Assembly (NCBI GenBank): GCA_963779685.1
Contig: CAVZZG010000003.1
Location: forward strand, 1,095,382-1,159,381
DNA: 64,000 nucleotides
Direction: 5' to 3'
DNA from: an uncultured Actinomycetes bacterium
GTDB lineage: Bacteria; Actinomycetota; Thermoleophilia; Gaiellales; F1-60-MAGs149
Shown in pieces: positions 1 to 41,827 of the stretch (position 1 is its first letter; each line of letters opens with the position of its first letter). Made by a program: the position numbers and the translations under genes. The notes beneath the pieces were generated by a model. That model made no database searches, was not told the origin of the DNA, and worked only from the letters and a program-made list of their open reading frames with translations.

Positions 1-88
1 GTTGTCCCGGGTAGTTAACGAGGCCAACCGGGGTCCTCGGCTTGCAGCTCACCACGGATCACGACCACGTCGAAACCAGGTCGCCCCC
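1..88 (-). ncRNA. ssrA: tmRNA, 5' part (truncated by window edge)
   Basis: Minus strand begins GGGGGCGACCTGGTTTCGACG, the typical tmRNA 5' end (GGGG..GA..GG.TTCGAC). A TACAAT -10 box lies at 104-99 and smpB is 3.5 kb away. Confidence 0.85.
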
Positions 89-3542: not shown

Positions 3543-4010
3543 CTAGTCGTCAGAGGCCTGCTTGAGGGCACGCTCGATCTGCCGCTTGGCCTCCCGCTCG
3601 GCGACCGCCTCGCGCTTGTCGCCGGCATCCCTGCCCCGGGCGAGGGCGATCTCGAGCTTCGCCTTGCCGTCCACGAAGTAGATCCGCAGCGGCACGAGCG
3701 TCAGGCCGCGCTCGGCGGTGCGCTGGCGCATCCGCTCGATCTCGCGAGTGTGGAGGAGCAGCCGCCGGTCGCGGTCGGGGCGGTGGTTGGCACGGTTCCC
3801 CTCGGAGTAGGGCTGGATCGTCGCGCCGACCAGGAACACCTCGTGGTCGCGCACCTGCCCGTAGGCCTCGGCGATGCTCGCCTGGCCTGCACGCAGCGAC
3901 TTGACCTCGGTGCCGACGAGGGAGATGCCGGCCTCGAACCGCTCCTCGATCTCGTAGGCATGGAGCGCGCGGCGGTTCGAGACCACCGTCCGGGAGGGCT
4001 TGTCGGTCAT
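3543..4010 (-). CDS. smpB: SsrA-binding protein
   Basis: NRRALHAY, EAGISLVGTEVKSLR, DKRE. Confidence 0.97.
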   Translation of the reverse strand: MTDKPSRTVVSNRRALHAYEIEERFEAGISLVGTEVKSLRAGQASIAEAYGQVRDHEVFLVGATIQPYSEGNRANHRPDRDRRLLLHTREIERMRQRTAERGLTLVPLRIYFVDGKAKLEIALARGRDAGDKREAVAEREAKRQIERALKQASDD

Positions 4011-7004: not shown

Positions 7005-7716
<712 letters not shown>

Positions 7717-13271: not shown

Positions 13272-15924
<2,653 letters not shown>

Positions 15925-22041: not shown

Positions 22042-22458
22042 ATGGTCATCGACGCGAACACCCCCATCGGCGCACGAGCGATCGAGCGCCTCAACGCCGA
22101 GCACGTCTCGTGGCTCGTCACCGTGAGCCCGTCCGGCCAGCCCCAGCCGAGCCCCATCTGGCACGAGCTGGACGGCGACACGATCCTCATGTACTCCAAG
22201 CCCGGCATGGCCAAGCTGCGCAACATCGCGGCCAACCCGCGGGTGGCCCTGCACCTGGACGGCAACGGCAAGGGCGGCGACATCGTCGTCATCGAAGGCC
22301 ACGCGGCCATCAGCGACGAGCCGGGCGCCGACCAGCGCCCGACCTACGTGGCCCGCTATCAGGACTTCATGACGCGCAACGGCTGGTCGGCCGGGGACTT
22401 CGCCCGCCAGTACTCGGTACCGGTGCGGATCGTGCCGACCAGGCTCCGCGGCTGGTAA
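22042..22458 (+). CDS. PPOX-class F420-dependent oxidoreductase
   Basis: WLVTVSPSGQPQPSPIW, KLRNIAANPRVAL. Confidence 0.85.
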   Translation: MVIDANTPIGARAIERLNAEHVSWLVTVSPSGQPQPSPIWHELDGDTILMYSKPGMAKLRNIAANPRVALHLDGNGKGGDIVVIEGHAAISDEPGADQRPTYVARYQDFMTRNGWSAGDFARQYSVPVRIVPTRLRGW

Positions 22459-22467
22459 TCGCTCGTC

Positions 22468-22722
22468 AGAGCTGATTTCAGGATGAGGGTCGTGGTCGCG
22501 GGTCGGGGAGCGAGCGGCAGCGACCGGGCGTTCCGCAGGCCTTGCCGACGCAAGGCCAAGGGACGCACGACGCTGCCGCGAAGCCCTTGAAGCCGCCTCT
22601 CCGAGGCGGCGGAAGGGAGCCGAAGCTGATCACGGTTGCCGGAGCCTCGGCTCCGGCGTTCGTGGTCAGCGCAGGACTCTCCCCGGCCATGCGAACGCGC
22701 CGCTCAATCTGAAATCAGCTCT
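22468..22722. mobile_element. MITE-like element with 20-bp terminal inverted repeats
   Basis: AGAGCTGATTTCAGGATGAG (22468) matches the reverse complement of 22703-22722 at 18/20; it sits between convergent genes. Confidence 0.6.
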
Positions 22723-23204
22723 TAGTGGCCGATGAGGTTGCTCTTGACGAGCGCCACGACGAGGCCCGACGCGAGCACCACGGCGGCCGCGACCAACGCA
22801 GGGCCTCTCGCACGGCCCGCCGCGCGCGCCGCCCAGTAGCCTGAGGCGCCGATGAACACCGCCGGCACCACGGCCGCCGCCCGCAGGTTGCCGTCGCTGA
22901 GGACGATCGGAACGCTGCAGAGCAGCGAGACCGCGCCCGCGGCGGCGACCTGAGCGACGCCGATCCGCGCGTCCTGGCGGCCGATGCGCCCGCCGCCGAC
23001 GCCCCGCGCGACCACGCCGAACGCGAACCAGTGGGCGAGGGATAGGCCGACCGCGGTGCCCCAGACGAGCTCGAGCAGTGCGGTTTCCTGAATGTGGACG
23101 TCGCCGCCCCGGAGCGCGGCCATCTCGGCGAGTTCGACGATCGAGATGTACAGCGTCATGGTGACGGCCTCTTGCCAGACCTCGCCATATTTCGCCGTCG
23201 CCAC
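22722..23204 (-). CDS. small integral membrane protein
   Basis: Several hydrophobic segments; start uncertain. Confidence 0.65.
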   Translation of the reverse strand: MATAKYGEVWQEAVTMTLYISIVELAEMAALRGGDVHIQETALLELVWGTAVGLSLAHWFAFGVVARGVGGGRIGRQDARIGVAQVAAAGAVSLLCSVPIVLSDGNLRAAAVVPAVFIGASGYWAARAAGRARGPALVAAAVVLASGLVVALVKSNLIGH

Positions 23205-23329
23205 CGCGCGATGATACCCGCCGAACCGGGAATGCTCGCGAGACGAGCACCGCGCCCGGCGCTTACCAAAGCAGGCTGACGCCCGCGGAGGCGTCCCGCG
23301 AGCCCTCGGGCCCACGGGACGCTTCCACG

Positions 23330-24997
23330 TTAGAGATCGCCACGGGCGAAGCCCGCGATCACCTCCGGGGCGGAGGTGTCGAAGCCGACGACGTCGAGCA
23401 TGCCGGCGTCGTTCGGATCGGCGATCGTGAAGCGGTTCGCGACCATGCCGACCACGACCAGCTTCGCCGGGATGCCGGTCGCCTGGCGGTAGCGGCGGAG
23501 CGCCTCGGCCGGGTGGATGTCACCCGCCCAGGTCTCGGAGTCGGTGTAGATCACGAACGTGTCGACCGCCCGGCCCAGCCGCCGCGCGTAGCGCATCGGG
23601 CAGCGAGCAGTCGGTGGCGCCGAACGGCAGGTCCGACACGGTCTTGACCACGTCGTTCAGCCGCTGCCGGGCCGACATCGCCAGCGGCGTCAGACCCGTC
23701 GGGCCCCAGCCGCGCGCGGCCCGAGCCCGCCCGCCAGCCGCCCCGGCCGGCGTGGAAGCCCACCACCTCGGCGTCCGGGTCGGACGCCAGCGTGACGAGC
23801 GCCATCGCGGCCGACGCCACCCGCGGCGTCAGGCCCGGAGCACGCCGCGACCATGCCCATCTCCATCGAGCCCGAGACGTCGAGCGCCAGCAGGAGACGG
23901 GCTGCCGGTCGGCGTGACGTTCGGGAACGCCAGGTAGAAGGCGCGGTCGAGGGCGTCGACGAGCCGCGCCACCGGCACCCACGTGTGCTGGCCGCGGAGA
24001 CCACGGCCGGCCGCGTACGTGCGCTGGGCCACGAGCAGGGCGATCGGGTGCAGCCGGGCCCGCCGGATCCGGTCGCGGATCGCCAGCTCGCGCCTGCACC
24101 GTGCGGACCGCGTCGGAACCCGGCGCGAGCAGGCCGACCCGGGTCATCGTCGCGAGGTTCCGCACCATGGCCGTCATCGGCATGTCCTCGAGCAGGGCCT
24201 CCCACACCGACGGGGCCGTGAGGTGCTCCGGCTGGAGCGCCTCGCGCGGCAGCCGGTACTCGGCGCACGAGCGCCGCCGACTCCGCCGGCGATCCCGCCC
24301 GCTGTGCGCGGACGAAGCCCTCGACGATCCGCGGCAGGTCCTCGGCCATCGTGCCGCGGACGATCCACTCGAACAGGCGCGCCTGCTCGGGCGACACCCG
24401 AAGCGTCGGGTTGCCGGCCGAGACGGCGGCCGCCGGGTGGGCCAGCCGCAGCACGTCGCGGTGCGTCATGCCCTCGCGCTGGCGGTACTTGACCGCCTGG
24501 TAGGCGAGCTCGTCGACGCCGCGACCGGCGTACCAGCGAGCCCACCGCCCGGCGAAGGGCACGACCCCAGCCGCGCCAGCCGTCGACGTAGCCGACGAAC
24601 TGGAACAGGTGCGTCGCCGTGCGGGCGACCTGCGGCAGCGCCCGCAGCGCCGCCTGGCGGGTGGCCAGGTCGGACGCCGAGGCCGCGCGGGCCAGGGCGA
24701 ACACCGCCGGGTCGTTGCTCGGCGCGCGGCCTGCCTGCGAGACCGCCACGATCTCGGCCACCGTGCGCGGGCCGTCTGCGGCCAGGCAAGCGTCGAGCGC
24801 GTCGGCGTTCTCGAGCGTCAGGCGCCGCTCGCCGGCGTAGAACGAGCCACCCTCGGAGCCCAGGATCAGGAACCGGCGCAGCCGCGTCCACTCGTCGGCC
24901 GAAAGACGAAGCCTCCGGCCGAGTTGCGCACCTGGTCGGCGCGGATGGACTCCCGCTGGTGCGGGGTGCGCTTCGCGAAGCGCGTGAGGTAGGACAT
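23330..24997 (-). CDS. rsr: Ro60/TROVE-domain RNA-binding protein with C-terminal vWA (about 8 frameshifts)
   Basis: Segments in changing frames: QVRNSAGGFVF, RLRRFLILGSEGGSFY, RTATHLFQF, QAVKYRQREG.THRDVLRLAHP, MPMTAMVRNL, RLHP, ALDVSGSM, GATDCSLP, YTDSETW, VVGFDTSAP. RBS GGAAAGGAGG. Confidence 0.9.
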
Positions 24998-25043
24998 GGC
25001 GAACCCTCCTTTCCGGGGCTCGGGGTTGGACGTGCGATGGAGA

Positions 25044-25170
25044 GGCGCGGTCGTGGTGCGCAACTGGCGGTAGGCGCTCTACCGATTGAGCTACGAGGCC
25101 AAGGCCCCGGCAGGACTCGAACCTGCAACCTCCGCACTGAAGCGGTAACCAGCTTGCTCCGGCCCGCGCC
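25044..25170 (-). ncRNA. yrlA: YrlA-type Y RNA (tRNA mimic)
   Basis: Terminal stem GGCGCGG/CCGCGCC with GCCGGAG and CACGA. Internal T-arm GCAGGTTCGAGTCCTGC, loop-closed acceptor CGGGGCC-TT-GGCCTCG, then D-arm TAGCTCAATCGGTAGAGC. Lies between rtcB and rsr. Confidence 0.88.
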
Positions 25171-25186
25171 GGGTCGTTCGGGTCGT

Positions 25187-26631
25187 TCAGTCTTCGGGCT
25201 TCTCGCCGCCGTCGGCCATGCGGACGATCCGTGGCCGGAAGCGGGCGACGATCTCGACGAGATCGGTCTGGCGACCCATCACCTCGTCGATGTCCTTGTA
25301 GGCGAACGGGTTCTCGTCGATGCCGGCCGCCAGCAGCCGGACGCCCCGCTCCCGAAGCAGCGGCTGGACGTCCTTCCAGGTGAACCGCCGCCGGGCCTCG
25401 GTGCGACTCATCGCCCGGCCGGCGCCGTGGGAGGCCGACTCGAGGCTCTCGGCCGAGCCGAGACCGCGGACGACGAAGCCGGGGGCGGCCATCGAGCCCG
25501 GGATCACCCCGAGCACGCCGGCCCCGGCGGGCGTCGCGCCCTTGCGGTGCACGACCACGTCGCGGTCGTCGTGCCGCTCGCGCCAGGCGAAGTTGTGGTG
25601 GTTCTCGACCCCGGCCAGCGCCTCCGCCTTGAGCGACCGGACGACGTTGCGGTGGATCACCTCGTGGCTGGCCGCCGCGTAGTCGCCCATCAGCTCCATC
25701 GCCGCCCAGTACTCCTGGCCCGCCTCGTGATCGAGGTCGAGCCAGGCGAGGTAGGCGAGCTCCTTCGGCAGCTCCGGGTGCAGGCCGCGGGCGACCTTGG
25801 TGTAGTGGTTGGCGACGGCCGCACCAGCGCCGCGGCTGCCCGAGTGGGACAGCAGGGCGAGGTAGCGGCCGGCATCGAGGCCGAGCCCGGCCTCCGCGAG
25901 CTCGAGCTCGCCGAACTCGACGAAGTGGTTGCCGGAGCCGGACGTGCCGAGCTGGGTCGCCGCCTTGTCGCGCAACGTGCGGGTGAGCCCGGTGACGCCC
26001 CAGCATCGGCGTCCATGACCTCGTGGTCGTTCGGCCGGGCAGCCGTCGCGCCGGTGCCGAACACGGTCTGCTTCAGCAGCGCGCGCTCGAGCGTCTCCGG
26101 CGCCGTGTCGATCATCCCCGGGTCGAGGTCGAGCACCGTCAGCCTCATCCGGCAGGCGATGTCGACGCCGACGGCGTAGGGGATGACCGTGCCCTCGGTG
26201 GCGAGCACGCCGCCGATCGGCAGGCCGTAGCCGAGGTGGGCGTCCGGCATCAGCGCGCCGCGGACGGCGCTCGGCAGCCGAGCGGCGTTGCGCATCTGGT
26301 CGACGGCCAGGCGCTCGTCGGGATCGCACCAGACCGCGAAGGGCGCGGGGGCCGGCCGATCATGGAAGACCGGCTCGGTGGCCTCGGCCACGAGACGCGC
26401 CGCGACCGCGCCGAACTGGGCGTGATCGACGTTGCCGGCCGGATCGGCCAGCACGGCGCTCAGCTGATCCAGCGCCGCCTGCCGGCCGAGGCGCTTGACC
26501 GCGCCGGGCAGGATGCGCATGACGTCGCCGAACACCGGGCCCTCCGGCAGGCCGAGCGCACGGAGCTCATCGCCCCGCACTGGCCGGTTTGCCTTGCCGT
26601 CCGCCACGGACGCACGATAGGCGCGACCCAT
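25187..26631 (-). CDS. rtcB: RtcB RNA ligase with N-terminal extension (one frameshift near 26005)
   Basis: MPDAHLGYGLPIGG, VGVDIAC, LGTSGSGNHFVE, SHSGSRG, HHNFA, HRKGAT, PGSM, SHGAGR, AYKDI. Confidence 0.93.
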
Positions 26632-26656
26632 TCGAACACCTCCTTTCTGTCGTTGA

Positions 26657-26729
26657 CTCGCCCGGCTGGATTCGAACCAGCGACCCCGTCCTCCGCAAGG
26701 ACGTGCCCTCTCCACTGGGCTACGGGCGA
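26657..26729 (-). tRNA. tRNA-Arg(GCG)
   Basis: TCGCCCG/CGGGCGA acceptor; anticodon loop TT-GCG-GA; T-loop TTCGAAT. Confidence 0.88.
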
Positions 26730-26734
26730 TCGAG

Positions 26735-26808
26735 TACGCCTGGCACGATTCGAACGTGCGACCTGGTGGGCCGGAACCACCCGCTCATGTCCACTGAGCT
26801 ACAGGCGT
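26735..26808 (-). tRNA. tRNA-Arg(CCG)
   Basis: ACGCCTG/CAGGCGT acceptor; loop TT-CCG-GC. Confidence 0.9.
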
Positions 26809-26816
26809 GCGTGAGG

Positions 26817-26888
26817 TGGAGCACCAGGGATTCGAACCCCGATCCCGGGTTTAAGAGACCCTTGCTCTGGCCGTTGAGCTAGTGCTCC
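26817..26888 (-). tRNA. tRNA-Lys(CTT)
   Basis: GGAGCAC/GTGCTCC acceptor; loop CT-CTT-AA. Confidence 0.87.
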
Positions 26889-26895
26889 GTGAAGG

Positions 26896-26967
26896 CGATC
26901 CAGAAGGGATTCGAACCCTCGCCTTCCCGCTCGACAGGCGGGCGCTCTACCGTTGAGCTACTGGACC
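26896..26967 (-). tRNA. tRNA-Asp(GTC)
   Basis: GGTCCAG/CTGGATC acceptor; loop CT-GTC-GA; G73. Confidence 0.9.
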
Positions 26968-26971
26968 GGGA

Positions 26972-27043
26972 TGCTACGGGCTGGAGTCGAACCAGCGCCC
27001 TCCGGGTTTCAACCGGATGCTCTTCCTGCTGAGCTACCGCAGC
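26972..27043 (-). tRNA. tRNA-Phe(GAA)
   Basis: GCTGCGG/CCGTAGC acceptor; loop TT-GAA-AC. Confidence 0.9.
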
Positions 27044-27056
27044 GCGGGTGCCGTGA

Positions 27057-27128
27057 AGCTGCGGGCCGGGATCGAACCGGCCTCATCCGGTTGGCGGCCG
27101 GACGCTCTGCCTGATGAGCTACCGCAGC
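27057..27128 (-). tRNA. tRNA-Gly(GCC), C33
   Basis: GCTGCGG/CCGCAGC acceptor; loop CC-GCC-AA; U73. Confidence 0.85.
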
Positions 27129-27133
27129 GTGCA

Positions 27134-27206
27134 TGGCTGGAGCAGGACTCGAACCTGCGATCAACCGGTTATGAGCCGGCTGCTCTTGCCGCTGAGCCAT
27201 CCAGCC
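27134..27206 (-). tRNA. tRNA-CAT (elongator Met or Ile2)
   Basis: GGCTGGA/TCCAGCC acceptor; loop CT-CAT-AA. Confidence 0.88.
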
Positions 27207-27210
27207 GGGA

Positions 27211-27283
27211 TAGGCGACCAACGAGTCGAACGTTGCTCTCCGGCGTATCAGACCGGTGTCTTCAACCGATGGACCAGTCGCCT
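27211..27283 (-). tRNA. tRNA-Ile(GAT)
   Basis: AGGCGAC/GTCGCCT acceptor; loop CT-GAT-AC. Confidence 0.85.
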
Positions 27284-27292
27284 GGGCGGAAG

Positions 27293-27366
27293 TGGACGAG
27301 GAGGGCATCGAACCCCCGATCTCCTCTTTGTAAGAGAGGCGCTCTACCAAGCTGAACCACTCGTCC
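27293..27366 (-). tRNA. tRNA-Val(TAC)
   Basis: GGACGAG/CTCGTCC acceptor; loop CT-TAC-AA. Confidence 0.9.
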
Positions 27367-27372
27367 GTGGAG

Positions 27373-27444
27373 ATCCAGGGGGAGGGGTCGAACCTCCGCC
27401 TCCGCGTTCAGAGCGCGGCCACCTGCCATTAGTAGGACCCTGGA
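27373..27444 (-). tRNA. tRNA-Gln(CTG)
   Basis: U1-A72 acceptor TCCAGGG/CCCTGGA; loop CT-CTG-AA. Confidence 0.85.
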
Positions 27445-27515
27445 AGCCGAGTGCAGGAGTCGAACCTGCGTCTGCCGTTTACGAGACGGCAGCTCTCCCC
27501 TTGAGCTAACCCGGC
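27445..27515 (-). tRNA. tRNA-Thr(CGT)
   Basis: GCCGGGT/ACTCGGC acceptor; loop CT-CGT-AA. Confidence 0.9.
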
Positions 27516-27566
27516 GAGTCGTGTTGTCGCGTTCAGCTAGCCGGAACTCCGTTGGGAGTTCCGGCA

Positions 27567-27638
27567 TGGAGCCGAGGGGAATCGAACCCCTGACCCTCTC
27601 CTTGCGAGGGAGGTGCCCGGCCATCGGGCGACAGCCCC
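27567..27638 (-). tRNA. tRNA-Ala(CGC)
   Basis: GGGGCTG/CGGCTCC with G3:U70; loop CT-CGC-AA. Confidence 0.9.
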
Positions 27639-27652
27639 GTGCTACGGGCCGA

Positions 27653-27726
27653 GGTGGCCTGTGGGACTCGAACCCACTGACGCCGGGTTCACAACCCGGA
27701 CCCTCGTCCGCTTCGGGATAGGCCAC
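27653..27726 (-). tRNA. tRNA-His(GTG)
   Basis: GTGGCCT/AGGCCAC acceptor, C73; loop TT-GTG-AA; irregular 8/9 junction. Confidence 0.8.
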
Positions 27727-27728
27727 AG

Positions 27729-27803
27729 CTCGTACGCCAGGCCTCGAACCTGGACCCCGCCGGGTAACAGCCGGCTGCTCTACCGCGATTGAGCTACGTA
27801 CGA
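27729..27803 (-). tRNA. tRNA-Asn(GTT)
   Basis: TCGTACG/CGTACGA acceptor; loop CT-GTT-AC; G73. Confidence 0.88.
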
Positions 27804-27876
27804 CACCTGCGCAAGGATTCGAACCCTGACTTGACCGGGTTGGAGCCGGCCGTGCTCGCCGTTACACCACACAGGT
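27804..27876 (-). tRNA. tRNA-Trp(CCA)
   Basis: ACCTGTG/CGCAGGT acceptor; loop CT-CCA-AC; G73. Confidence 0.87.
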
Positions 27877-27881
27877 ACGGA

Positions 27882-27955
27882 TGACGCCCCTGGGATTCGA
27901 ACCCAGACCGATCCGGGTCTGGGCCGGATTCCTCTGCCAGTTGGGATAGAGCGCC
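27882..27955 (-). tRNA. tRNA-Leu(CAG), short variable loop, C33
   Basis: GGCGCTC/GGGCGTC acceptor; Leu-like D-loop; loop CC-CAG-AC; 5-nt variable region; A73. Confidence 0.8.
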
Positions 27956-27968
27956 GTGGAAGACGAGG

Positions 27969-28052
27969 TCGAGGGAGCGGGAGTCGAACCCGCACAGCCC
28001 GTGGGCACCGGTTTTACAGACCGCTGGGCTCGCCCGTGCCCGGTGTCCCTCG
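27969..28052 (-). tRNA. tRNA-Tyr(GTA)
   Basis: CGAGGGA/TCCCTCG acceptor; loop CT-GTA-AA; long variable arm. Confidence 0.8.
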
Positions 28053-28057
28053 ATGAA

Positions 28058-28147
28058 TGGAGGAGAGCTGGCGAGTCGAACGCCCGGGCCAGTGACCCGT
28101 CACGCCGGCTTTCGAGGCCGGTTGGCCCCCGCGGGCCGAAACTCTCC
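28058..28147 (-). tRNA. tRNA-Ser(CGA), non-canonical fold, encoded CCA
   Basis: GGAGAGTT/AGCTCTCC; loop CT-CGA-AA; long variable arm; ends TCCA. Confidence 0.8.
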
Positions 28148-28154
28148 GTGCGAG

Positions 28155-28227
28155 CGGCTCTGGCGGGAATCGAACCCGATCGTCGCGAGGTTGAGGGCCT
28201 CGCATCCTGCCATTAGACGACAGAGCC
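28155..28227 (-). tRNA. tRNA-Glu(CTC), C33
   Basis: GGCTCTG/CAGAGCC acceptor; loop CC-CTC-AA; G73. Confidence 0.83.
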
Positions 28228-28238
28228 TGGGTTGGAAT

Positions 28239-28321
28239 GCTGCGGTCGTGGGGCACGGCCCGGTGCGAGTCGGATTCGAACCGAATGAGCGCCAGATAAC
28301 CGGGCCGACTCGGCCCGCAGC
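28239..28321 (-). ncRNA. Y RNA-like gene with a T-arm only
   Basis: GCTGCGG-GCCGAG...CACGA-CCGCAGC terminal motif as in YrlA; 9-bp CGGCCCGGT/ACCGGGCCG stem; TCGG-TTCGAAT-CCGA hairpin. Confidence 0.75.
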
Positions 28322-28328
28322 GAGTGGA

Positions 28329-28402
28329 TCTGGCCGGCAGGAGTCGAACCTGCGGTCTCCGGCGCCCGAAGCCGGTGGGGTGGCCGGCTCCCCTACAGCC
28401 AG
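28329..28402 (-). tRNA. tRNA-Pro(CGG)
   Basis: C1-G72 CTGGCTG/CGGCCAG; loop TT-CGG-GC; A73. Confidence 0.9.
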
Positions 28403-28415
28403 GTAGGTGCGGAGC

Positions 28416-28490
28416 TGCGCGGTCGTGTCGTCCCGACCGGGTGTGGGTTTCGATGTGCAGTTCGAGAACCGGAAGGGTCCGGCCCGCGCA
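28416..28490 (-). ncRNA. Y RNA-like gene without tRNA-like arms
   Basis: TGCGCGG-GCCGGA...CACGA-CCGCGCA terminal motif; inner CCC/GGG and CCGG/CCGG pairing around a large loop. Confidence 0.65.
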
Positions 28491-28499
28491 TCTCCGGCA

Positions 28500-28572
28500 T
28501 GGCGCGGGCAGGAGTCGAACCTGCTCTCTCGAGCTCATGAAGCTCGCGGGATCCCCGTTTCCCCACCGCGCG
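28500..28572 (-). tRNA. initiator-like tRNA-fMet(CAT)
   Basis: CGCGCGG/CCGCGCC with C1xC72 mismatch; loop TT-CAT-GA. Confidence 0.83.
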
Positions 28573-28864
28573 TTGCGTGTGCCTCTGTCGGTCGGGCCGT
28601 TGGGCCAGACGTCCTGTTCATGCCACTCGCCCACCCTTCGACCCTGGATCGCCAAGACGGCGTCCTCCGTGGAGGGGTGCTGGAGCCCGGAGCCTCAAGA
28701 TCTGTCATGTGTCAGGGCACGCTGACGCACATCTGCCACATGACAGATGGCTATGACATCTCGAGAGGGCCTTTCTCTCTCGGGCGGGGCCTCGATGGTT
28801 GAATTGACTTCTTCAAGATGGGCGGCTCACTGGTTGGGATTGGACGAGCGACTGGTGGAGGACG

Positions 28865-28892
28865 AAAAAGGCGACCGCTTCGGGTCGCCTTC
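28865..28892 (-). terminator. intrinsic terminator (putative attenuator)
   Basis: AAGGCGACC-CGAAGC-GGTCGCC followed by TTTTT. Confidence 0.75.
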
Positions 28893-28919
28893 GCGTCGAA
28901 CCGGGATGCAGCCAGGGAT

Positions 28920-29030
28920 CTAGCGTGCATTCCTCCCGACGCGGAGGCTTGTGGGTGCGTAGGCGCGATCGAGCCACAGACTCGGTCGGCCTTCGGCAGA
29001 ACATGGATCGATTGCGTGGAACAACATCAC
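28920..29030 (-). CDS. putative leader peptide (36 aa)
   Basis: GTG ATG TTG...CGC TAG = MMLFHAIDPCSAEGRPSLWLDRAYAPTSLRVGRNAR. Starts at the predicted TSS; its 3' end overlaps the antiterminator strand. Confidence 0.5.
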   Translation of the reverse strand: MMLFHAIDPCSAEGRPSLWLDRAYAPTSLRVGRNAR

Positions 29031-29037
29031 GGGTCTC

Positions 29038-29066
29038 ACCTTACACGGTGGAGCGGACGGATGCAA
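29038..29066 (-). promoter_or_regulatory. sigma70-type promoter for the leader/tRNA array
   Basis: TTGCAT (29066-29061), 17-nt spacer, TAAGGT (29043-29038). Confidence 0.6.
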
Positions 29067-31535: not shown

Positions 31536-32506
31536 CAGCCGCGACGGCGACGGTCGTCGAGGTAGGCGGCGCCGACCAGGGACCCGGTCGCCAGCGCAGC
31601 GGCCGCCAGCATCTCCCGGGTTCCGGTGCGGATCGCAACTCCGGCCATGGCGAGCCCGACGACGGGCGCGGTGACCGCGCCGGCCGTCCGGTACCACGGT
31701 CGCTGGGCGGGAGGCGGCGGAGCGATGCCCTCGAGGGCGCGACGGGCGGCGGATGCGGTGGGACGGTCGCCCGGCCGGCGCCGCAGCATCGCGTCGATCG
31801 TTTCGGCGAACGGCGGGCTGAGCCCGACGACGAGGGTCGACAGCGGCGGTACGTCCTCCCGGATCCGACGCCGCTCGTCGGCCGCGAACGGCACCGTGCC
31901 CGTCAACAGTTCGTGCGCGACCACCCCGAGCGCGTAGACGTCCGTGGGCGACTCGGCCTCGCGCCCGGACAGCTGTTCAGGAGCCATGTAGCGCCGCGTG
32001 CCGATGACGTGACCCGCGGTCGTGGCATGCGGGTCGCCCATGCGCCGGGCGATGCCGAAGTCCGAGACCTTGACCGTCCCCTGACGGGTCTTGAGGAGGT
32101 TCGCGGGCTTGACGTCGCGGTGCACCATCCCGATCGCGTGCGCATCGGCCAGTCCGTACGCGGCGTGGATCAGGTACTCGCGCACGACCTCTGTCGACCC
32201 GCAGCCGATGTCCTGCCTGAGGTCGCCGCCGTCCATGTACTCCATCAGGATGAAGATGCGCCCCTCGTGCTCGTCGACCCCGTATACCGTGACGACATGC
32301 GGCGAGCCCGACAGCTTGGCGAGGCGCCTTGCCTCGTCGTGAAGGTCCATGTGGCGCGTCATGTCCGCCCGCGCTCTCGCCAGCTTCAGTGCCCGCAACA
32401 CGTCGAGCGTGCCGTCCCACACCAGGAACACCTCTGCTGCGGCGCCGTCGCCGATCTTCCGGATCACCCGGTAAGGCCCGATGTAGAGGTCGTCGCCCTC
32501 GTTCAC
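31535..32506 (-). CDS. Ser/Thr protein kinase
   Basis: ALK, HRDVKPAN, DFG, YMAPEQ, DVYALG. Confidence 0.92.
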   Translation of the reverse strand: MNEGDDLYIGPYRVIRKIGDGAAAEVFLVWDGTLDVLRALKLARARADMTRHMDLHDEARRLAKLSGSPHVVTVYGVDEHEGRIFILMEYMDGGDLRQDIGCGSTEVVREYLIHAAYGLADAHAIGMVHRDVKPANLLKTRQGTVKVSDFGIARRMGDPHATTAGHVIGTRRYMAPEQLSGREAESPTDVYALGVVAHELLTGTVPFAADERRRIREDVPPLSTLVVGLSPPFAETIDAMLRRRPGDRPTASAARRALEGIAPPPPAQRPWYRTAGAVTAPVVGLAMAGVAIRTGTREMLAAAALATGSLVGAAYLDDRRRRG

Positions 32507-40297: not shown

Positions 40298-41827
40298 ATG
40301 AGCGCCACCGCTTCCGCACCCCAGTCCACCGGGGTTCGCGTCCTCTCCAACTACGTCGGGGGCGCATGGGTCGCGTCGTCCTCGTCGCAGCTCCTGGACG
40401 TCACCAACCCGGCCACCGGCGAGGTGCTGGCCCGGGTGCCGCTGTCCACCAAGGCCGAGCTCGATGAGGCCGCGCGCGTCGCTCGCGGCGCCTACGAGAC
40501 CTGGCGCAAGGTGCCGGTGCTCGAGCGCACGCGCTGGCTCTACGACATCCGGCACGCCTTCGCCGAGCGGCTCGACGACATCGCCGCGTCGATCACCCGC
40601 GAGATGGGCAAGACCTACCCGGACGCCCAGGCCGAGGTCGCGCGCACGATCGAGAACGTCGAGGGCGCCTGCGCCGTGCCGACGATGATCCAGGGCAAGA
40701 TCCTGGAGGGCGTCGCGACCTCCGTGGACGCCGAGACGATCCGCCAGCCGGTGGGCGTGGTCGGCAACATCGTGCCGTTCAACTTCCCGGCCATGGTGCC
40801 GTTCTGGTTCCTGCCCTACGCCGTCGCCTGCGGCAACGCCTACGTGCTGAAGCCCTCGGAGCAGGTGCCCATGACGCAGGCCCTGATGTGGGAGATCATG
40901 CACGACGTCGGCGGGCTGCCGGCGGGCGTGATCAACCTCGTGAACGGCTCCGTCGACGTCGTCAACGCGATGCTCGACTCGCCCGACATCGACGCCATCA
41001 GCTTCGTCGGCTCGGCCAAGACCGCGCGCTACATCTACTCGCGCTCGGCCGAGAACGGCAAGCGCGTGCAGGCGCTCGGCGGCGCCAAGAACCACATGAT
41101 CGTCATGCCCGACGCCGTCATGGACAAGACCGCCGACAACATCATCGGCTCGGCCTTCGGCGCCGCCGGCCAGCGCTGCATGGCGGGCTCGGTCGTGGTC
41201 GCCGTCGGCGACGCCAAGAAGCCCCTCTTCGACGAATTGATCCCGAAGGTCGAGGCGCTGCGGGTCGGCGACGGCATGGAGAAGGGCATCAGCGTCGGAC
41301 CGGTGGTGTCGTGTGCCGCGCGCGACCGCATCCGCGGCATGATCGAGACCGGGCTCGGCGAGGGCGCGACCCTCGCGGTCGACGGCCGCGAACCGGGAGG
41401 CGACCCCAAGGGCGCCTTCATCGGACCGACCATCCTCGACGAGGTCACGCCCGAGATGAGCGTCGCCCAGGACGAGATCTTCGGCCCGGTGCTGTCGGTC
41501 ATCCACGCCGACTCGCTCGAGGAGGCGATCCGGATCGTCAACAACTGCCGGTACGGCAACGGCACGTCGATCTTCACCGAGTCGGGCGCCGCCGTCCGCA
41601 AGTACCGCGAGGACGTCCAGGTCGGCATGATCGGCGTCAACGTCGGCGTGGCCGCCCCCGTCGGCGTCTTCCCGTTCACGGGCTGGCGCGACTCGTTCCT
41701 CGGCGACATGCACGCGCAGGCGGGCGACGCCGTCGACTTCTACACCCGCAAGAAGACCACCACCAGCCGCTGGTTCTCGGGCGGCCCGGTCGGCAAGTTC
41801 TTCGTCGAGCATGGAGACACGCACTGA
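40298..41827 (+). CDS. mmsA: CoA-acylating (methyl)malonate-semialdehyde dehydrogenase
   Basis: PFNFPAMVP, GGAKNH, GAAGQRCMA, EIFGP. Confidence 0.92.
   Translation: MSATASAPQSTGVRVLSNYVGGAWVASSSSQLLDVTNPATGEVLARVPLSTKAELDEAARVARGAYETWRKVPVLERTRWLYDIRHAFAERLDDIAASITREMGKTYPDAQAEVARTIENVEGACAVPTMIQGKILEGVATSVDAETIRQPVGVVGNIVPFNFPAMVPFWFLPYAVACGNAYVLKPSEQVPMTQALMWEIMHDVGGLPAGVINLVNGSVDVVNAMLDSPDIDAISFVGSAKTARYIYSRSAENGKRVQALGGAKNHMIVMPDAVMDKTADNIIGSAFGAAGQRCMAGSVVVAVGDAKKPLFDELIPKVEALRVGDGMEKGISVGPVVSCAARDRIRGMIETGLGEGATLAVDGREPGGDPKGAFIGPTILDEVTPEMSVAQDEIFGPVLSVIHADSLEEAIRIVNNCRYGNGTSIFTESGAAVRKYREDVQVGMIGVNVGVAAPVGVFPFTGWRDSFLGDMHAQAGDAVDFYTRKKTTTSRWFSGGPVGKFFVEHGDTH

What the first reader, a model, noticed from the sequence alone, without database searches (positions are those of the whole stretch)
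23330..29066. Candidate tRNA replacement and RNA repair operon: 21 tRNAs, 3 Y RNAs, RtcB and Ro60 in one unit
Seen: on the minus strand the order is fMet-Y-Pro-Y-Glu-Ser-Tyr-Leu-Trp-Asn-His-Ala-Thr-Gln-Val-Ile-CAT-Gly-Phe-Asp-Lys-Arg-Arg-rtcB-yrlA-rsr. Spacers are tiny, I saw no internal U-tailed terminator, and there is roughly one tRNA per amino acid (19 of 20; Cys missing). I saw no phage or integrase genes around it. Known: rsr/Y RNA/rtcB modules respond to tRNA cleavage, and tRNA arrays occur separately, including a translation-stress-induced one in cyanobacteria. Inference: this is one inducible kit that both re-ligates broken RNA and supplies a nearly complete spare tRNA set, possibly against anticodon nucleases or ribosome antibiotics. 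No RtcR-type regulator is adjacent.
Basis: partly seen in the sequence, partly recalled or inferred. Interest (0 to 1): 0.92.

Follow-up and report, generated by a model that had tools for sequence, protein, structure and literature searches.

The report
tRNA array fused to Ro60/Y-RNA/RtcB operon
A spare set of 21 tRNA genes, three Y RNAs, an RNA ligase (RtcB) and the RNA-binding protein Ro60 sit head to tail as one apparent unit, and similar units recur in other soil and sediment bacteria, which links two RNA-stress systems that have been studied separately.

Summary
ARAGORN finds 21 minus-strand tRNAs (26657-28572) in the stated order. A covariance model built only from relatives' Y RNAs picks out exactly three elements in the window and in the whole genome: 28414-28492, 28237-28323 and YrlA at 25042-25172. 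rtcB (25187-26631) and rsr (23330-24997) follow, with 25-nt and 44-nt spacers.

As assembled, rtcB has one frame break and rsr has eight. The assembly carries about 545 such breaks with the same +1 bias, including in secA, zwf and alr. I therefore read them as long-read consensus errors, not pseudogenes.

The linkage is conserved:
- 9 of 15 metagenome loci with the closest Rsr carry same-strand tRNAs beside Y RNAs and rsr.
- One of them has tRNAs-rtcB-Y-YrlA-rsr with an unrelated RtcB.
- A second genome of the phylum has 21 tRNAs with an embedded YrlA-like RNA upstream of a divergent TROVE gene.

The array tRNAs are 53-75% identical to host isoacceptors, all 20 anticodons are redundant, and they match the top codon for 16 of 19 amino acids. 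The module is missing from 40 relatives.

Co-transcription, induction and function are inferred; no RNA data exist. Verdict: a new variant joining an L-array to an Rsr/Y RNA/RtcB operon.

The parts
28862..28893 (-). Terminator-like hairpin (GGCGACC / GGTCGCC, 6-nt loop) followed by TTTTT. It lies about 290 nt upstream of the first tRNA and downstream of the AsnB-like gene.
   Evidence: Read directly from the sequence; the consensus scan did not list it. Similar GGGCGACC-type hairpins lie 250-320 nt upstream of the first tRNA in L184, L190 and L177.
28700..28748 (.). Inverted repeat with 16-nt arms (94% complementary, 17 nt between them) in the leader or promoter region. Candidate operator or leader hairpin; function not shown.
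   Evidence: the repeat finder I15. Not found upstream of the related arrays.
26657..28572 (-). Array of 21 tRNA genes covering 19 amino acids. No Cys and no encoded CCA. 11 tRNAs per kb.
   Evidence: ARAGORN; Rfam tRNA. 53-75% identity to host tRNAs with the same anticodon. All 20 anticodons are also present among the dispersed tRNAs. The anticodon matches the top codon for 16 of 19 amino acids.
28414..28492 (-). Y RNA 1, a short stem-loop type, between tRNA-Met(CAT) and tRNA-Pro. It has a lower stem UGCGCGG/CCGCGCA, the 5' motif GGGCCGGA, GGUUCUC, and the 3' motif CACGACC.
   Evidence: Model R1: 42.2 bits, E 2.2e-5. Fold z-score -3.41. Shares its motifs with YrlA and Y2.
28237..28323 (-). 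Y RNA 2, YrlB-like, with a T-arm-like hairpin UCGGUUCGAAUCCGA, between tRNA-Pro and tRNA-Glu.
   Evidence: Model R1: 48.4 bits, E 1.8e-6. Same design as L176:2277-2387 and L163:2217-2328.
27540..27565 (-). 11-bp hairpin in the 51-nt spacer between tRNA-Ala and tRNA-Thr. Possible processing site or U-less terminator.
   Evidence: strand folding: -22.9 kcal/mol, z -5.2, 0 of 200 shuffles as stable.
25187..26631 (-). rtcB (3'-phosphate/5'-OH RNA ligase) with an N-terminal extension of about 85 aa. It has one frame switch at about 26005 in the assembly. The ATG lies 25 nt after tRNA-Arg(GCG) and is preceded by GAAAGGAGG.
   Evidence: Pfam RtcB profile 1-89 in one frame and 138-423 in another. Frame map. 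PHROG 'tRNA splicing ligase'.
25042..25172 (-). YrlA-type Y RNA with a T-arm, an acceptor-like hairpin and a D-arm, between the rtcB stop and the rsr ATG.
   Evidence: Rfam YrlA: 46.5 bits (below the gathering score of 69), E 2e-8. Model R1: 39.8 bits.
23330..24997 (-). rsr (Ro60 orthologue, TROVE + vWA). It is read in 9 frame segments in the assembly, with switches near 24902, 24566, 24262, 24090, 23896, 23833, 23693 and 23595.
   Evidence: Pfam TROVE and vWA_Ro60 pieces. The segments tile residues 54-618 of the intact Rsr ORF of L177, losing at most 2 residues at seven of the eight junctions; ORF residues 487-497 are uncovered at the eighth. 76% identity to L176 over 520 columns.
23291..23322 (-). 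8-bp GC hairpin (GCGUCCCG/CGGGACGC) starting 8 nt after the rsr stop. Candidate U-less terminator.
   Evidence: Read directly. Not tested further.

Best explanation
What it is. This is a horizontally acquired, chromosomal composite RNA-maintenance operon. A long tRNA array (L-array type, 21 supernumerary tRNAs tuned to the host's commonest G/C-ending codons) is fused head to tail with an Rsr(Ro60)/Y RNA/RtcB module.

Most likely mechanism (inferred):
- One promoter, in the roughly 290 nt between the upstream hairpin/T5 and the first tRNA, drives a polycistronic transcript.
- RNase P and RNase Z cut at the tRNAs. This releases the 21 CCA-less tRNAs and the two Y RNAs that lie 5-11 nt from flanking tRNAs. 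It also releases an rtcB-YrlA-rsr mRNA whose 5' end is made by 3' processing of the last tRNA.
- The products then act on a damaged tRNA pool. The array replaces tRNAs, RtcB re-ligates cleaved tRNAs, and Rsr with its Y RNAs directs degradation or quality control of unrepaired or misfolded RNA. The tRNA-like Y RNAs may also act as decoys.

Shown here: the parts, their order and spacing, their foreign and redundant nature, and the recurrence of the tRNA-Y RNA-rsr (+/- rtcB) linkage elsewhere.

Inferred: co-transcription, processing, inducibility, and the trigger (anticodon nucleases, ribotoxins or translation stress).

The frame breaks in rtcB and rsr are most likely consensus errors of the assembly.
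For: Parts: and (three Y RNAs found by a model trained only on other loci, with no other hit in the genome).

Structure of the Y family. On the 13 relatives' elements, 84.1% of cells are paired against 65.5% in shuffles. 13 pairs change on both sides. The covariation score is 0.408 against 0.137, with 0 of 500 shuffles as high, and the slid controls give 0.06-0.09. One relative's short element passes Rfam's sbRNA (nematode Y RNA) gathering score, 40.6 against 38.

Unity of the locus. All parts are on one strand. The spacers are 25 nt (tRNA-Arg to the rtcB ATG, with GGAGG), 14 nt (rtcB stop to YrlA) and 44 nt (YrlA to the rsr ATG, with GGAGG).

Conserved linkage.
- 9 of 15 metagenome loci with Rsr 56-78% identical carry same-strand tRNAs next to Y RNAs and rsr. 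6 of these 15 have 6-23 tRNAs, in 3 distinct array types.
- L190 has 6 tRNAs-rtcB-Y-YrlA-rsr with an RtcB only 33-36% identical to the window's. The window's RtcB clade is otherwise never linked to rsr or arrays: 0 of 80 bacterial loci. That points to independent recruitment of rtcB to the same slot.
- G087 has 21 tRNAs with an embedded YrlA-like RNA directly upstream of a very divergent TROVE/vWA gene.
- The Rsr of the window groups with the tRNA-flanked L176 and L177 (support 99/100).
- In 5 of 6 related loci the Y RNA starts 0-2 nt after a tRNA.

Foreign and supernumerary nature.
- tRNA identity to host isoacceptors is 53-75%.
- TROVE was found in 0 of 40 relatives.
- In G014 and G010 the genes flanking window positions 22.46-40.34 kb are adjacent.
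- No flanking protein gene is shared with the related loci.

Frame breaks as artefacts.
- There are 545 stop-less frame switches genome-wide, 432 of them +1, as are 7 of the 8 in rsr. They form 40 clusters.
- secA, G6PD and alanine racemase are also split across frames.
- The rsr segments tile an intact homologue, losing at most 2 residues at seven of eight junctions; 11 ORF residues (487-497) are uncovered at the eighth.

Literature. rtcB lies near cyanobacterial L-arrays and is co-induced with the Anabaena array (PMC8421152, passages read). rsr, Y RNAs and rtcB form an operon regulated by damaged tRNAs in Salmonella (PMC7790460, passages read).
Against: - There is no expression evidence of any kind.
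- No sigma-70-like promoter was found.
- A very stable hairpin inside the array (27540-27565) could terminate or segment transcription.
- As assembled, both protein genes are broken. The one public run that holds related sequence gave no information at the break sites, so real pseudogenisation is not excluded.
- Several array tRNAs are non-canonical: C33 in Glu, Gly and Leu; tRNA-Leu(CAG) is a 74-nt type I tRNA with a 3-bp D stem; Rfam does not list the Gln tRNA. Some may not be chargeable, or these oddities may be assembly errors.
- Linkage is a minority state. Among the 13 TROVE-positive genomes of 401 sampled in the phylum, only G000 and G087 have an array beside the gene.
- The rtcB slot is empty in the L176-type, L177 and L186 loci.
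- No nuclease or toxin that would supply the damage was identified nearby.
Confidence: 0.6

Rival explanations
1. Decaying cargo of an actinophage or another mobile element. The array, Ro60 and RtcB arrived together from a phage that uses them during infection. They have no host function, and rtcB and rsr are real pseudogenes.
For: - 321 actinophage records encode a Ro-like protein up to 56.6% identical to the window's Rsr piece.
- RtcB and Ro have PHROG families.
- 10 of 70 viral contigs with RtcB carry 4-18 tRNAs nearby.
- A viral contig (L201) has 2 tRNAs just upstream of its Ro gene.
- Distribution among relatives is sporadic.
- There are nine frame breaks as assembled.
Against: - No integrase, capsid, tail or other phage family was found among the flanking proteins tested.
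- Flanks of the related loci are ordinary chromosomal genes: MMPL, SDR and EndoIII in L190; purU and a two-component system in G087.
- The frame breaks follow a genome-wide artefact pattern that also hits secA.
- Each break costs at most 2 residues, except one junction where 11 ORF residues (487-497) are uncovered; there is no in-frame stop, and flanking identity is 53-84%.
- In phage Dandelion the Ro gene is not fused to an array.
- The window's Rsr clusters with metagenome chromosomal-type loci, not with the phage row.
Confidence: 0.12
2. Chance or merely historical adjacency. Y RNAs arise from tRNA arrays (the dimeric-tRNA origin model), so arrays and rsr/Y loci sit together for evolutionary reasons. 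The array and rtcB-yrlA-rsr are expressed and used independently.
For: [quoted passage not shown]
- Y2 and YrlA carry T-arm and D-arm modules.
- Array order and content are not conserved between loci, and same-anticodon tRNA identity between loci is 54-77%.
- There is a strong hairpin inside the array.
Against: - There is no room for a promoter in the 25 nt before rtcB.
- Two different RtcB lineages occupy the same slot between tRNAs and Y RNAs in the window and in L190.
- A very divergent TROVE gene (G087) is again array-linked with an embedded YrlA-like RNA.
- tRNAs also follow rsr in L176 and L177.
Confidence: 0.12
3. Plain gene-dosage array. The 21 tRNAs simply raise the supply of tRNAs for the commonest codons in fast or high-level translation, and the neighbouring repair genes are incidental.
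For: - The Watson-Crick codon of the array anticodon is the most used codon for 16 of 19 amino acids and the second most used for Ala and Thr.
- Identity elements such as G3:U70 in tRNA-Ala are present (read).
Against: - The tRNAs are only 53-75% identical to the host's own.
- Three have C33 and the Leu tRNA is type I.
- The module is missing from all 40 relatives searched.
- The studied L-arrays are silent in normal growth (PMC8421152, passages read).
- Y RNAs are interleaved with the tRNAs.
Confidence: 0.08

Closest known systems
Salmonella Typhimurium rsr-yrlBA-rtcBA RNA repair operon (RtcR/sigma-54 controlled; PMC7790460, passages read)
   Same: It combines Rsr, a tRNA-like YrlA, a second shorter Y RNA and RtcB in one co-oriented unit. 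It is linked to tRNA damage.
   Different: - No RtcA or RtcR family match in this genome.
- The gene order is reversed, with rtcB upstream of rsr.
- There are three Y RNAs, two of them inside a tRNA array.
- 21 tRNA genes belong to the unit.
Mycobacterium smegmatis rsr locus with YrlA and YrlB (PMC4201824, passages read)
   Same: - It is an actinobacterial-type Rsr without RtcR.
- YrlA lies directly 5' of rsr.
- YrlB contains a T-arm, as Y2 does here.
- YrlA is cut by RNase P and receives CCA, which fits maturation by tRNA enzymes.
   Different: No tRNA array or rtcB is described at that locus in the passages I read. That study discarded candidate hits that overlapped tandem tRNA genes. Its supplementary tables could not be opened.
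Long tRNA arrays: L-arrays, e.g. the Anabaena PCC 7120 trn operon (PMC8421152), and tRNA array units of Mycobacterium (PMC5966550, PMC12803027)
   Same: - 20 or more co-oriented, densely packed, supernumerary tRNAs.
- Sporadic distribution, as with horizontal spread.
- rtcB occurs in the neighbourhood of cyanobacterial L-arrays and is co-induced with the Anabaena array by translation inhibitors.
   Different: - 'Y RNA' has 0 occurrences in PMC8421152; Ro60/TROVE were not among the terms searched there. 'TROVE' has 0 occurrences in PMC5966550 and PMC12803027, and 'Ro60' 0 in PMC12803027.
- No HNH endonuclease turned up among the flanking proteins scanned here.
- Here rtcB is fused to the array with a 25-nt spacer, not merely nearby.
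Actinophages carrying a Ro-like protein and many tRNAs (Bixzunavirus / cluster C such as Dandelion; Streptomyces phages)
   Same: A Ro60 homologue up to 56.6% identical over 106 residues, together with phage-borne tRNAs and, in other phages, RtcB (PMC7824862, passages read).
   Different: In Dandelion the Ro gene stands alone, with only two tRNAs about 2.8 kb upstream. The window and the related loci lie in chromosomal contexts with no phage genes detected.

Membership tests
tRNA array unit / L-array | At least 20 tRNA genes at 2 or more per kb (definition quoted in the abstract of PMC4758250) | tested here: met
   21 tRNAs in 1916 bp, which is 11 per kb.
tRNA array unit / L-array | Same orientation and close enough to be co-transcribed | tested here: met
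   All are on the minus strand. 17 of 20 spacers are 14 nt or less. Transcription itself was not tested.
tRNA array unit / L-array | Supernumerary: adds isodecoders, not new anticodons; foreign origin | tested here: met
   All 20 anticodons are also present among the dispersed tRNAs. Identity to them is 53-75%. The region is absent between the same flanking genes in G014 and G010.
tRNA array unit / L-array | Silent in normal growth, induced by translational stress (the Anabaena case) | not testable with these tools
   No RNA run was listed for this sequence.
Bacterial Y RNA (YrlA/YrlB type) | Long stem formed by the 5' and 3' ends | tested here: met
   - 5-6 of 7 outer pairs in each of the three window elements.
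- 24 of 30 elements have 5 or more of 7 pairs, against 22% in the shuffled-flank control.
- Covariation on the relatives' alignment.
Bacterial Y RNA (YrlA/YrlB type) | Conserved Rsr-binding 5'-strand motif (GNCGAAN0-1G, as named in PMC4201824) | tested here: inconclusive
   The window elements read GCCGGAG, GCCGGAC and GCCGAGU, which are near matches. Relatives such as the L177 YrlA read GCCGAAG. All share GGGCCGR ... GGUUNYC ... CAYGNCC.
Bacterial Y RNA (YrlA/YrlB type) | tRNA-like domain (T-arm before D-arm) in at least one Y RNA per species | tested here: met
   Rfam YrlA positions 23-89 match at 25068-25134. The score of 46.5 bits is below the curated 69, with E 2e-8.
Bacterial Y RNA (YrlA/YrlB type) | Encoded within 4 kb of rsr (the criterion used in PMC4201824) | tested here: met
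   YrlA ends 44 nt before the rsr ATG. Y2 and Y1 lie 3.2 and 3.4 kb upstream of it.
Bacterial Y RNA (YrlA/YrlB type) | Bound and stabilised by Rsr | not testable with these tools
   Needs immunoprecipitation.
rsr-Y RNA-rtcBA operon (RtcR regulon) | Rsr (TROVE + vWA) and RtcB encoded together | tested here: met
   Pfam. Both genes are frame-broken in this assembly, and I judge the breaks to be artefacts.
rsr-Y RNA-rtcBA operon (RtcR regulon) | RtcA cyclase in the operon | tested here: not met
   PF01137 has no match in the genome, which is 94% complete.
rsr-Y RNA-rtcBA operon (RtcR regulon) | Divergent RtcR (CARF-sigma54 activator) | tested here: not met
   PF06956 has no match in the genome. 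One related metagenome locus without tRNAs, L189, does have RtcR.

The most novel reading that the evidence does not exclude
A mobile, self-contained 'tRNA emergency cassette' exists in high-GC soil and sediment bacteria. A promoter drives a tRNA array in which Y RNAs are punctuated by tRNAs and matured by RNase P and RNase Z, like tRNAs. The array tRNAs have diverged and in part have atypical anticodon loops (C33). They replace or shield host tRNAs attacked by anticodon nucleases, while RtcB re-ligates the cut tRNAs and Rsr/Y RNA clears the debris. The independent recruitment of two unrelated RtcB lineages, and of a very divergent TROVE protein, to the same architecture would mean selection for the combination, not for the parts. 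That would give bacterial Ro60/Y RNA its first clear physiological partner, the tRNA pool.
Probability: 0.3. Interest if true: 0.8.

Novelty: new variant of a known kind. Interest (0 to 1): 0.62.

Why it matters
Two puzzles of bacterial RNA biology have been studied apart: what long, horizontally spread tRNA arrays are for, and what bacterial Ro60 and its tRNA-like Y RNAs do. This locus and its relatives put both in one apparent transcription unit with the tRNA ligase RtcB.

This yields concrete, cheap tests:
- Are Y RNAs cut out of a tRNA array transcript by tRNA-processing enzymes?
- Are the array tRNAs, Y RNAs and Rsr co-induced?
- Does the cassette protect against anticodon nucleases or ribosome-targeting drugs?

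It also gives natural evidence bearing on the proposal that Y RNAs arose from tandem tRNA transcripts.

A practical caution follows too. In this assembly frame breaks are frequent, so broken genes should not be read as pseudogenes.

Tried and rejected
Reads. The look-up of sequencing runs listed one DNA run (X1, sediment metagenome, share 0.15) and no RNA holder. Read laying on X1 gave only short, low-depth contigs of related strains and other organisms. Nothing usable lay at the rsr and rtcB break sites, so it neither supports nor refutes the artefact reading. It did show strain variants, which are listed under Noticed in passing.

Rfam. Rfam alone does not call the two short Y RNAs, so I built my own model.

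Alignment. MAFFT on the three window elements misaligned their 5' ends. I dropped that alignment.

Regex. A loose motif regex gave 548 hits per Mb and was useless. A stricter one gave 7 hits in the genome, 3 of them at the locus.

tblastn. A whole Rsr protein run against the window produced read-through HSPs across frames. I replaced it with a segment-wise blastp.

Break-site context. Nucleotide alignment of rsr to L176 and L177 did not show a clean homopolymer context at the break sites, so I draw no argument from it.

Promoter and terminator scan. It found nothing, and it also missed a hairpin+T5 that is visible by eye. I therefore do not use it as evidence of absence.

Upstream operator. 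I found no motif shared between loci.

PrfH. A PrfH partner for this RtcB clade appeared near 1 of 150 loci. Rejected.

Defence genes. PADLOC on 10 proteins (7 neighbouring genes plus the RtcB and Rsr pieces) hit only the Ser/Thr kinase (a generic kinase match to PD-T4-6) and a weak CARF fragment in the LuxR protein. I do not read either as a defence system.

Flanking genes. No flanking protein gene is shared between the window and the related loci.

Papers. Burroughs & Aravind 2016 (NAR) and the 2020 Annual Review on bacterial Ro60 were not held. They may already describe tRNA genes beside Ro/Y RNA loci. Supplementary tables of PMC4201824 and PMC8421152 were not opened (closed) and may list such cases.

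My claim that the fusion of a tRNA array of 20 or more genes with Y RNAs and rsr is not described rests only on searches and on the passages read.

Full report
**The observation**

Rfam's tRNA model lists 17 at gathering score and 18 in the E-value search. The type II Tyr and Ser appear only as sub-threshold tRNA-Sec matches, and the Gln tRNA is not listed, although ARAGORN draws a regular cloverleaf for it. Seventeen of the 20 spacers are 14 nt or less. The exceptions are 51, 101 and 97 nt. Downstream, Pfam finds RtcB, TROVE and the Ro60 vWA domain. The genome carries a full dispersed tRNA set besides the array.

**The two protein genes are not open frames in this assembly**

A three-frame reading and a GC3-phase hidden Markov segmentation that I wrote both show one frame switch in rtcB, near 26005. 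Both show eight in rsr, near 24902, 24566, 24262, 24090, 23896, 23833, 23693 and 23595. I therefore asked whether this is peculiar to the locus.

The same segmentation over all four contigs gives 545 same-strand frame switches with no stop codon at the switch, or 12.8 per 100 kb. Of these, 432 are in the +1 direction, as are 7 of the 8 in rsr. There are 40 clusters of three or more, and four other clusters hold 7-9 switches. These candidates were not verified one by one. Those I looked at lie in conserved genes:
- secA inside the window, split at 14554 within the SecA P-loop domain;
- a glucose-6-phosphate dehydrogenase, in at least three frames;
- an alanine racemase.

The nine rsr segments tile residues 54-618 of the intact Rsr ORF of metagenome locus L177. 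At most two residues are lost at seven of the eight junctions (ORF residues 487-497 are uncovered at the eighth), there is no in-frame stop, and identity is 53-84% per segment. I conclude that the breaks are most likely consensus errors of a long-read assembly (4 contigs, 94% complete). This is an inference. The one public run holding related sequence gave no information at the break sites.

**The Y RNAs**

Rfam supports only the tRNA-like core of a YrlA between rtcB and rsr, at 46.5 bits against a gathering score of 69, with E 2e-8. It gives nothing for the two large gaps in the array.

Direct-repeat analysis showed that the three regions share a 5' block (GCGGGCCGR...GGUU) and a 3' block (CACGACCGC). 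The same blocks flank elements upstream of rsr in related loci. One of those elements, L183:4122-4191, passes Rfam's gathering score for the nematode stem-bulge RNAs (40.6 against 38). That these sbRNAs are Y RNA homologues is recalled knowledge, not shown by any search.

I aligned 13 short elements from other loci only. On that alignment I wrote out a structure with a lower stem, a bulged helix and an upper stem. 84.1% of cells pair, against 65.5% in shuffles. 13 of the 21 pairs change on both sides. The covariation score is 0.408 against 0.137, with 0 of 500 shuffles as high, and sliding the partners by 1-3 columns drops it to 0.06-0.09.

A covariance model built from this alignment, run with filters off over the whole window, gives three hits:
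- 28237-28323, 48.4 bits;
- 28414-28492, 42.2 bits;
- 25042-25172, 39.8 bits.

The next hit scores 19.4 bits. Over the whole genome the same three are the only hits at E <= 0.01. Y2 carries a T-arm-like hairpin, as described for M. smegmatis YrlB (PMC4201824, passages read). Y1 is a plain stem-loop type.

**Anatomy of the unit**

Reading 5' to 3' on the minus strand:
- A GC hairpin followed by TTTTT lies at 28893-28862. I read it; the scan missed it.
- A leader of about 290 nt follows. It contains a 16-nt-arm inverted repeat at 28700-28748.
- tRNA-Met(CAT) comes next, with an unpaired 1:72.
- Y1 follows, 7 nt after the preceding tRNA and 11 nt before the next.
- tRNA-Pro follows.
- Y2 follows, 5 nt after the preceding tRNA and 9 nt before the next.
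- Nineteen more tRNAs follow.
- 25 nt containing GAAAGGAGG lead to the rtcB ATG at 26631.
- The rtcB stop is followed by YrlA after 14 nt.
- 44 nt containing GGAAAGGAGG lead to the rsr ATG at 24997.
- The rsr stop is followed by an 8-bp GC hairpin at 23322-23291.

There is no room for a promoter between the last tRNA and rtcB. None of the tRNAs encodes CCA.

**The array is foreign and redundant**

Each array tRNA is only 53-75% identical to the host tRNA with the same anticodon. All 20 anticodons are also present in the dispersed set. The Watson-Crick codon of the array anticodon is the host's most used codon for 16 of 19 amino acids. It ranks second for Ala and Thr and fourth for Val.

Three array tRNAs (Glu, Gly, Leu) have C33, whereas host tRNAs with a regular cloverleaf have U33. 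The Leu(CAG) tRNA is a 74-nt type I molecule with a 3-bp D stem. G3:U70 is present in tRNA-Ala (read).

**Genomic context**

The flanks are ordinary chromosomal genes:
- To the left lie ssrA, smpB, ftsEX-like genes, prfB, secA, three genes I take from their translations to be F420-biosynthesis genes (no family search was run on them) and a PNPOx-family gene.
- To the right lie an AsnB-like gene, a Ser/Thr kinase, a solute-binding protein, an AAA-LuxR regulator, pyruvate kinase and Tag glycosylase.

No integrase or phage structural family was found. PHROG hits were confined to RtcB, Ro and the AsnB-like protein.

TROVE was found in none of 40 relatives. In two same-family genomes (G014, G010) the PNPOx-family gene is directly followed by the aldehyde dehydrogenase that sits at 40340 in the window. 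About 17.9 kb, including the module, is therefore absent there. No RtcR or RtcA family match exists in the genome.

**Conserved linkage**

The closest RtcB homologues are 61-70% identical and come from Verrucomicrobiota, Planctomycetota, Acidobacteriota and others. They are never next to rsr or to three or more tRNAs (0 of 80 loci). Ten of 70 viral contigs with more distant RtcBs carry 4-18 tRNAs, and none has an Rsr match.

The picture changes when Rsr is the query. Fifteen metagenome loci encode an Rsr 56-78% identical. Nine of them carry same-strand tRNAs beside rsr; Y-type elements were detected in eight of these nine, not in L184's short gap:
- The L176, L179 and L184 type has 20 tRNAs, then a Y element (two in L176, and a Y plus a YrlA in L179 and L182; none detected in L184), then rsr, followed by three more tRNAs in L176. 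L182 is a fragment of this type.
- L177 and L180 have tRNA-His, Y, Y, YrlA and rsr, followed by three tRNAs in L177.
- L186 has 10 tRNAs, a Y RNA and rsr.
- L185 has tRNA-Pro, a Y RNA and a YrlA-like element before rsr.
- L190 has six tRNAs, rtcB, a Y RNA, YrlA and rsr.

Many of these contigs are cut short, so nine is a lower bound. L176, L179, L184 and L182 are one array type and are not independent.

The RtcB of L190 is only 33-36% identical to the window's. Two different ligase lineages therefore occupy the same slot. In five of six loci the first Y RNA begins 0-2 nt after a tRNA.

In a sample of 401 genomes of the phylum, 13 have a TROVE match (this tally includes the unpublished G088, on which nothing else rests). 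Besides the window's genome, only G087 has an array beside the gene. There, 21 tRNAs with a YrlA-like match embedded between tRNA-Val and tRNA-Lys (38.2 bits) lie directly upstream of a very divergent TROVE/vWA protein, in a chromosomal context. That TROVE gene is the only one among 151 genomes sampled from its order. G305 and G307 have a single tRNA upstream, and G307 reads tRNA-Arg, YrlA, rsr. The other loci examined have no tRNA within about 6 kb.

On an Rsr tree the window groups with L176 and L177 (support 99/100). The actinophage and viral rows fall elsewhere, and G087 sits on a very long branch. No flanking protein gene is shared between the window and the related loci. What recurs is just tRNAs, Y RNAs and rsr, with or without rtcB.

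**Interpretation**

The best-supported reading is a composite, horizontally acquired operon that couples an L-array to an Rsr/Y RNA/RtcB module. The tight spacing and the interleaving of Y RNAs with tRNAs suggest a single precursor cut by RNase P and RNase Z. This would also generate the Y RNA ends and the 5' end of the rtcB-YrlA-rsr message. It fits the report that M. smegmatis YrlA is an RNase P substrate and receives CCA (PMC4201824).

Function is inferred from the families. RtcB re-ligates cleaved tRNA. The Salmonella operon is switched on by damaged tRNAs (PMC7790460). The Anabaena L-array and rtcB are co-induced by translation inhibitors (PMC8421152). Ro60/Y RNA tethers PNPase for structured-RNA decay in Deinococcus (abstract of PMC4201824). 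Replace, repair and remove is thus a coherent division of labour, but none of it is shown here.

The rivals cannot be excluded without RNA data and accurate reads. They are a decaying phage-derived cargo, a merely historical adjacency because Y RNAs are born in tRNA arrays, and a plain tRNA dosage array.

**Comparison with what is known**

Each pairwise link is already in print:
- rsr, Y RNA and rtcB together (Salmonella);
- rtcB near L-arrays (PMC8421152);
- Ro-like genes in tRNA-rich actinophages (PMC7824862).

I did not find a description of the full fusion: an array of 20 or more tRNAs with Y RNAs inside it, joined to rtcB and rsr and recurring across loci. Two relevant reviews or surveys and all supplementary tables could not be read, so prior description is possible.

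I rate the finding a new variant of a known kind, with interest 0.62. It is well above ordinary because the linkage is conserved, partly convergent and directly testable.

Noticed in passing
whole genome; in the window at 14554, 39578, 48160, 48386: The assembly carries about 545 stop-less same-strand frame switches (12.8 per 100 kb, 79% of them +1). They are strongly clustered, and some fall in secA, a G6PD gene and an alanine racemase gene. Broken genes in this genome should not be read as pseudogenes without accurate reads.
   Followed up: partly
window 22458-22730: A MITE-like element of about 265 nt with 14-nt terminal inverted repeats (AGAGCTGATTTCAG / CTGAAATCAGCTCT). Six further near-full copies at 91-97% identity, plus fragments, occur in the genome. 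It lies at the left edge of the 17.9-kb stretch that is missing in G014 and G010.
   Followed up: partly
whole genome; array 26657-26729: ARAGORN finds no tRNA-Arg(ACG) anywhere in the four contigs (94% complete). tRNA-Arg(GCG) is present instead, both in the host set and in the array. The arrays of L176 and G087 also carry Arg(GCG).
   Followed up: no
window 27030-27114 and 28405-28477 (run X1): Contigs of a related strain in a sediment metagenome differ in two ways. One skips 85 nt, which removes one of the two similar neighbours tRNA-Gly and tRNA-Phe and leaves a 20-tRNA array. Another replaces 73 nt inside Y1 by 98 other letters. The depth is only 3.5-3.9, so these are weak observations.
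   Followed up: no
window 27882-27955, 28154-28227, 27057-27128: Array tRNAs Leu(CAG), Glu(CTC) and Gly(GCC) have C at position 33, where host tRNAs have U. The Leu tRNA also lacks the long variable arm. These may be real features, possibly nuclease evasion, or assembly errors.
   Followed up: partly
L184:1073-1100, L190 about 7078 and 7295-7325, L177 about 1082; window 28862-28893: A GC-rich hairpin of the GGGCGACC type, in some cases followed by a T-run, sits 250-320 nt upstream of the first tRNA in the window and in three related loci, as if the cassette carried its own upstream insulator.
   Followed up: no
window 31553-32506: The Ser/Thr kinase upstream of the module matches PADLOC PD-T4-6 and mad6 kinase models (E 1e-59). 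This is probably a generic kinase similarity. No partner defence genes were seen.
   Followed up: no
window 1-88 and 3546-3986: The 5' end of tmRNA lies at the window edge (Rfam; the full gene appears in ARAGORN), with an smpB-like gene about 3.5 kb away (identified from its translation; no family search was run). This is an ordinary housekeeping context.
   Followed up: no
window 26361-26631 (RtcB residues 1-85): RtcB has an N-terminal extension of about 85 residues outside the Pfam RtcB profile. Many of its closest homologues share it, for example L006, L013 and L026. Pfam detects no family in it at E <= 0.01.
   Followed up: partly
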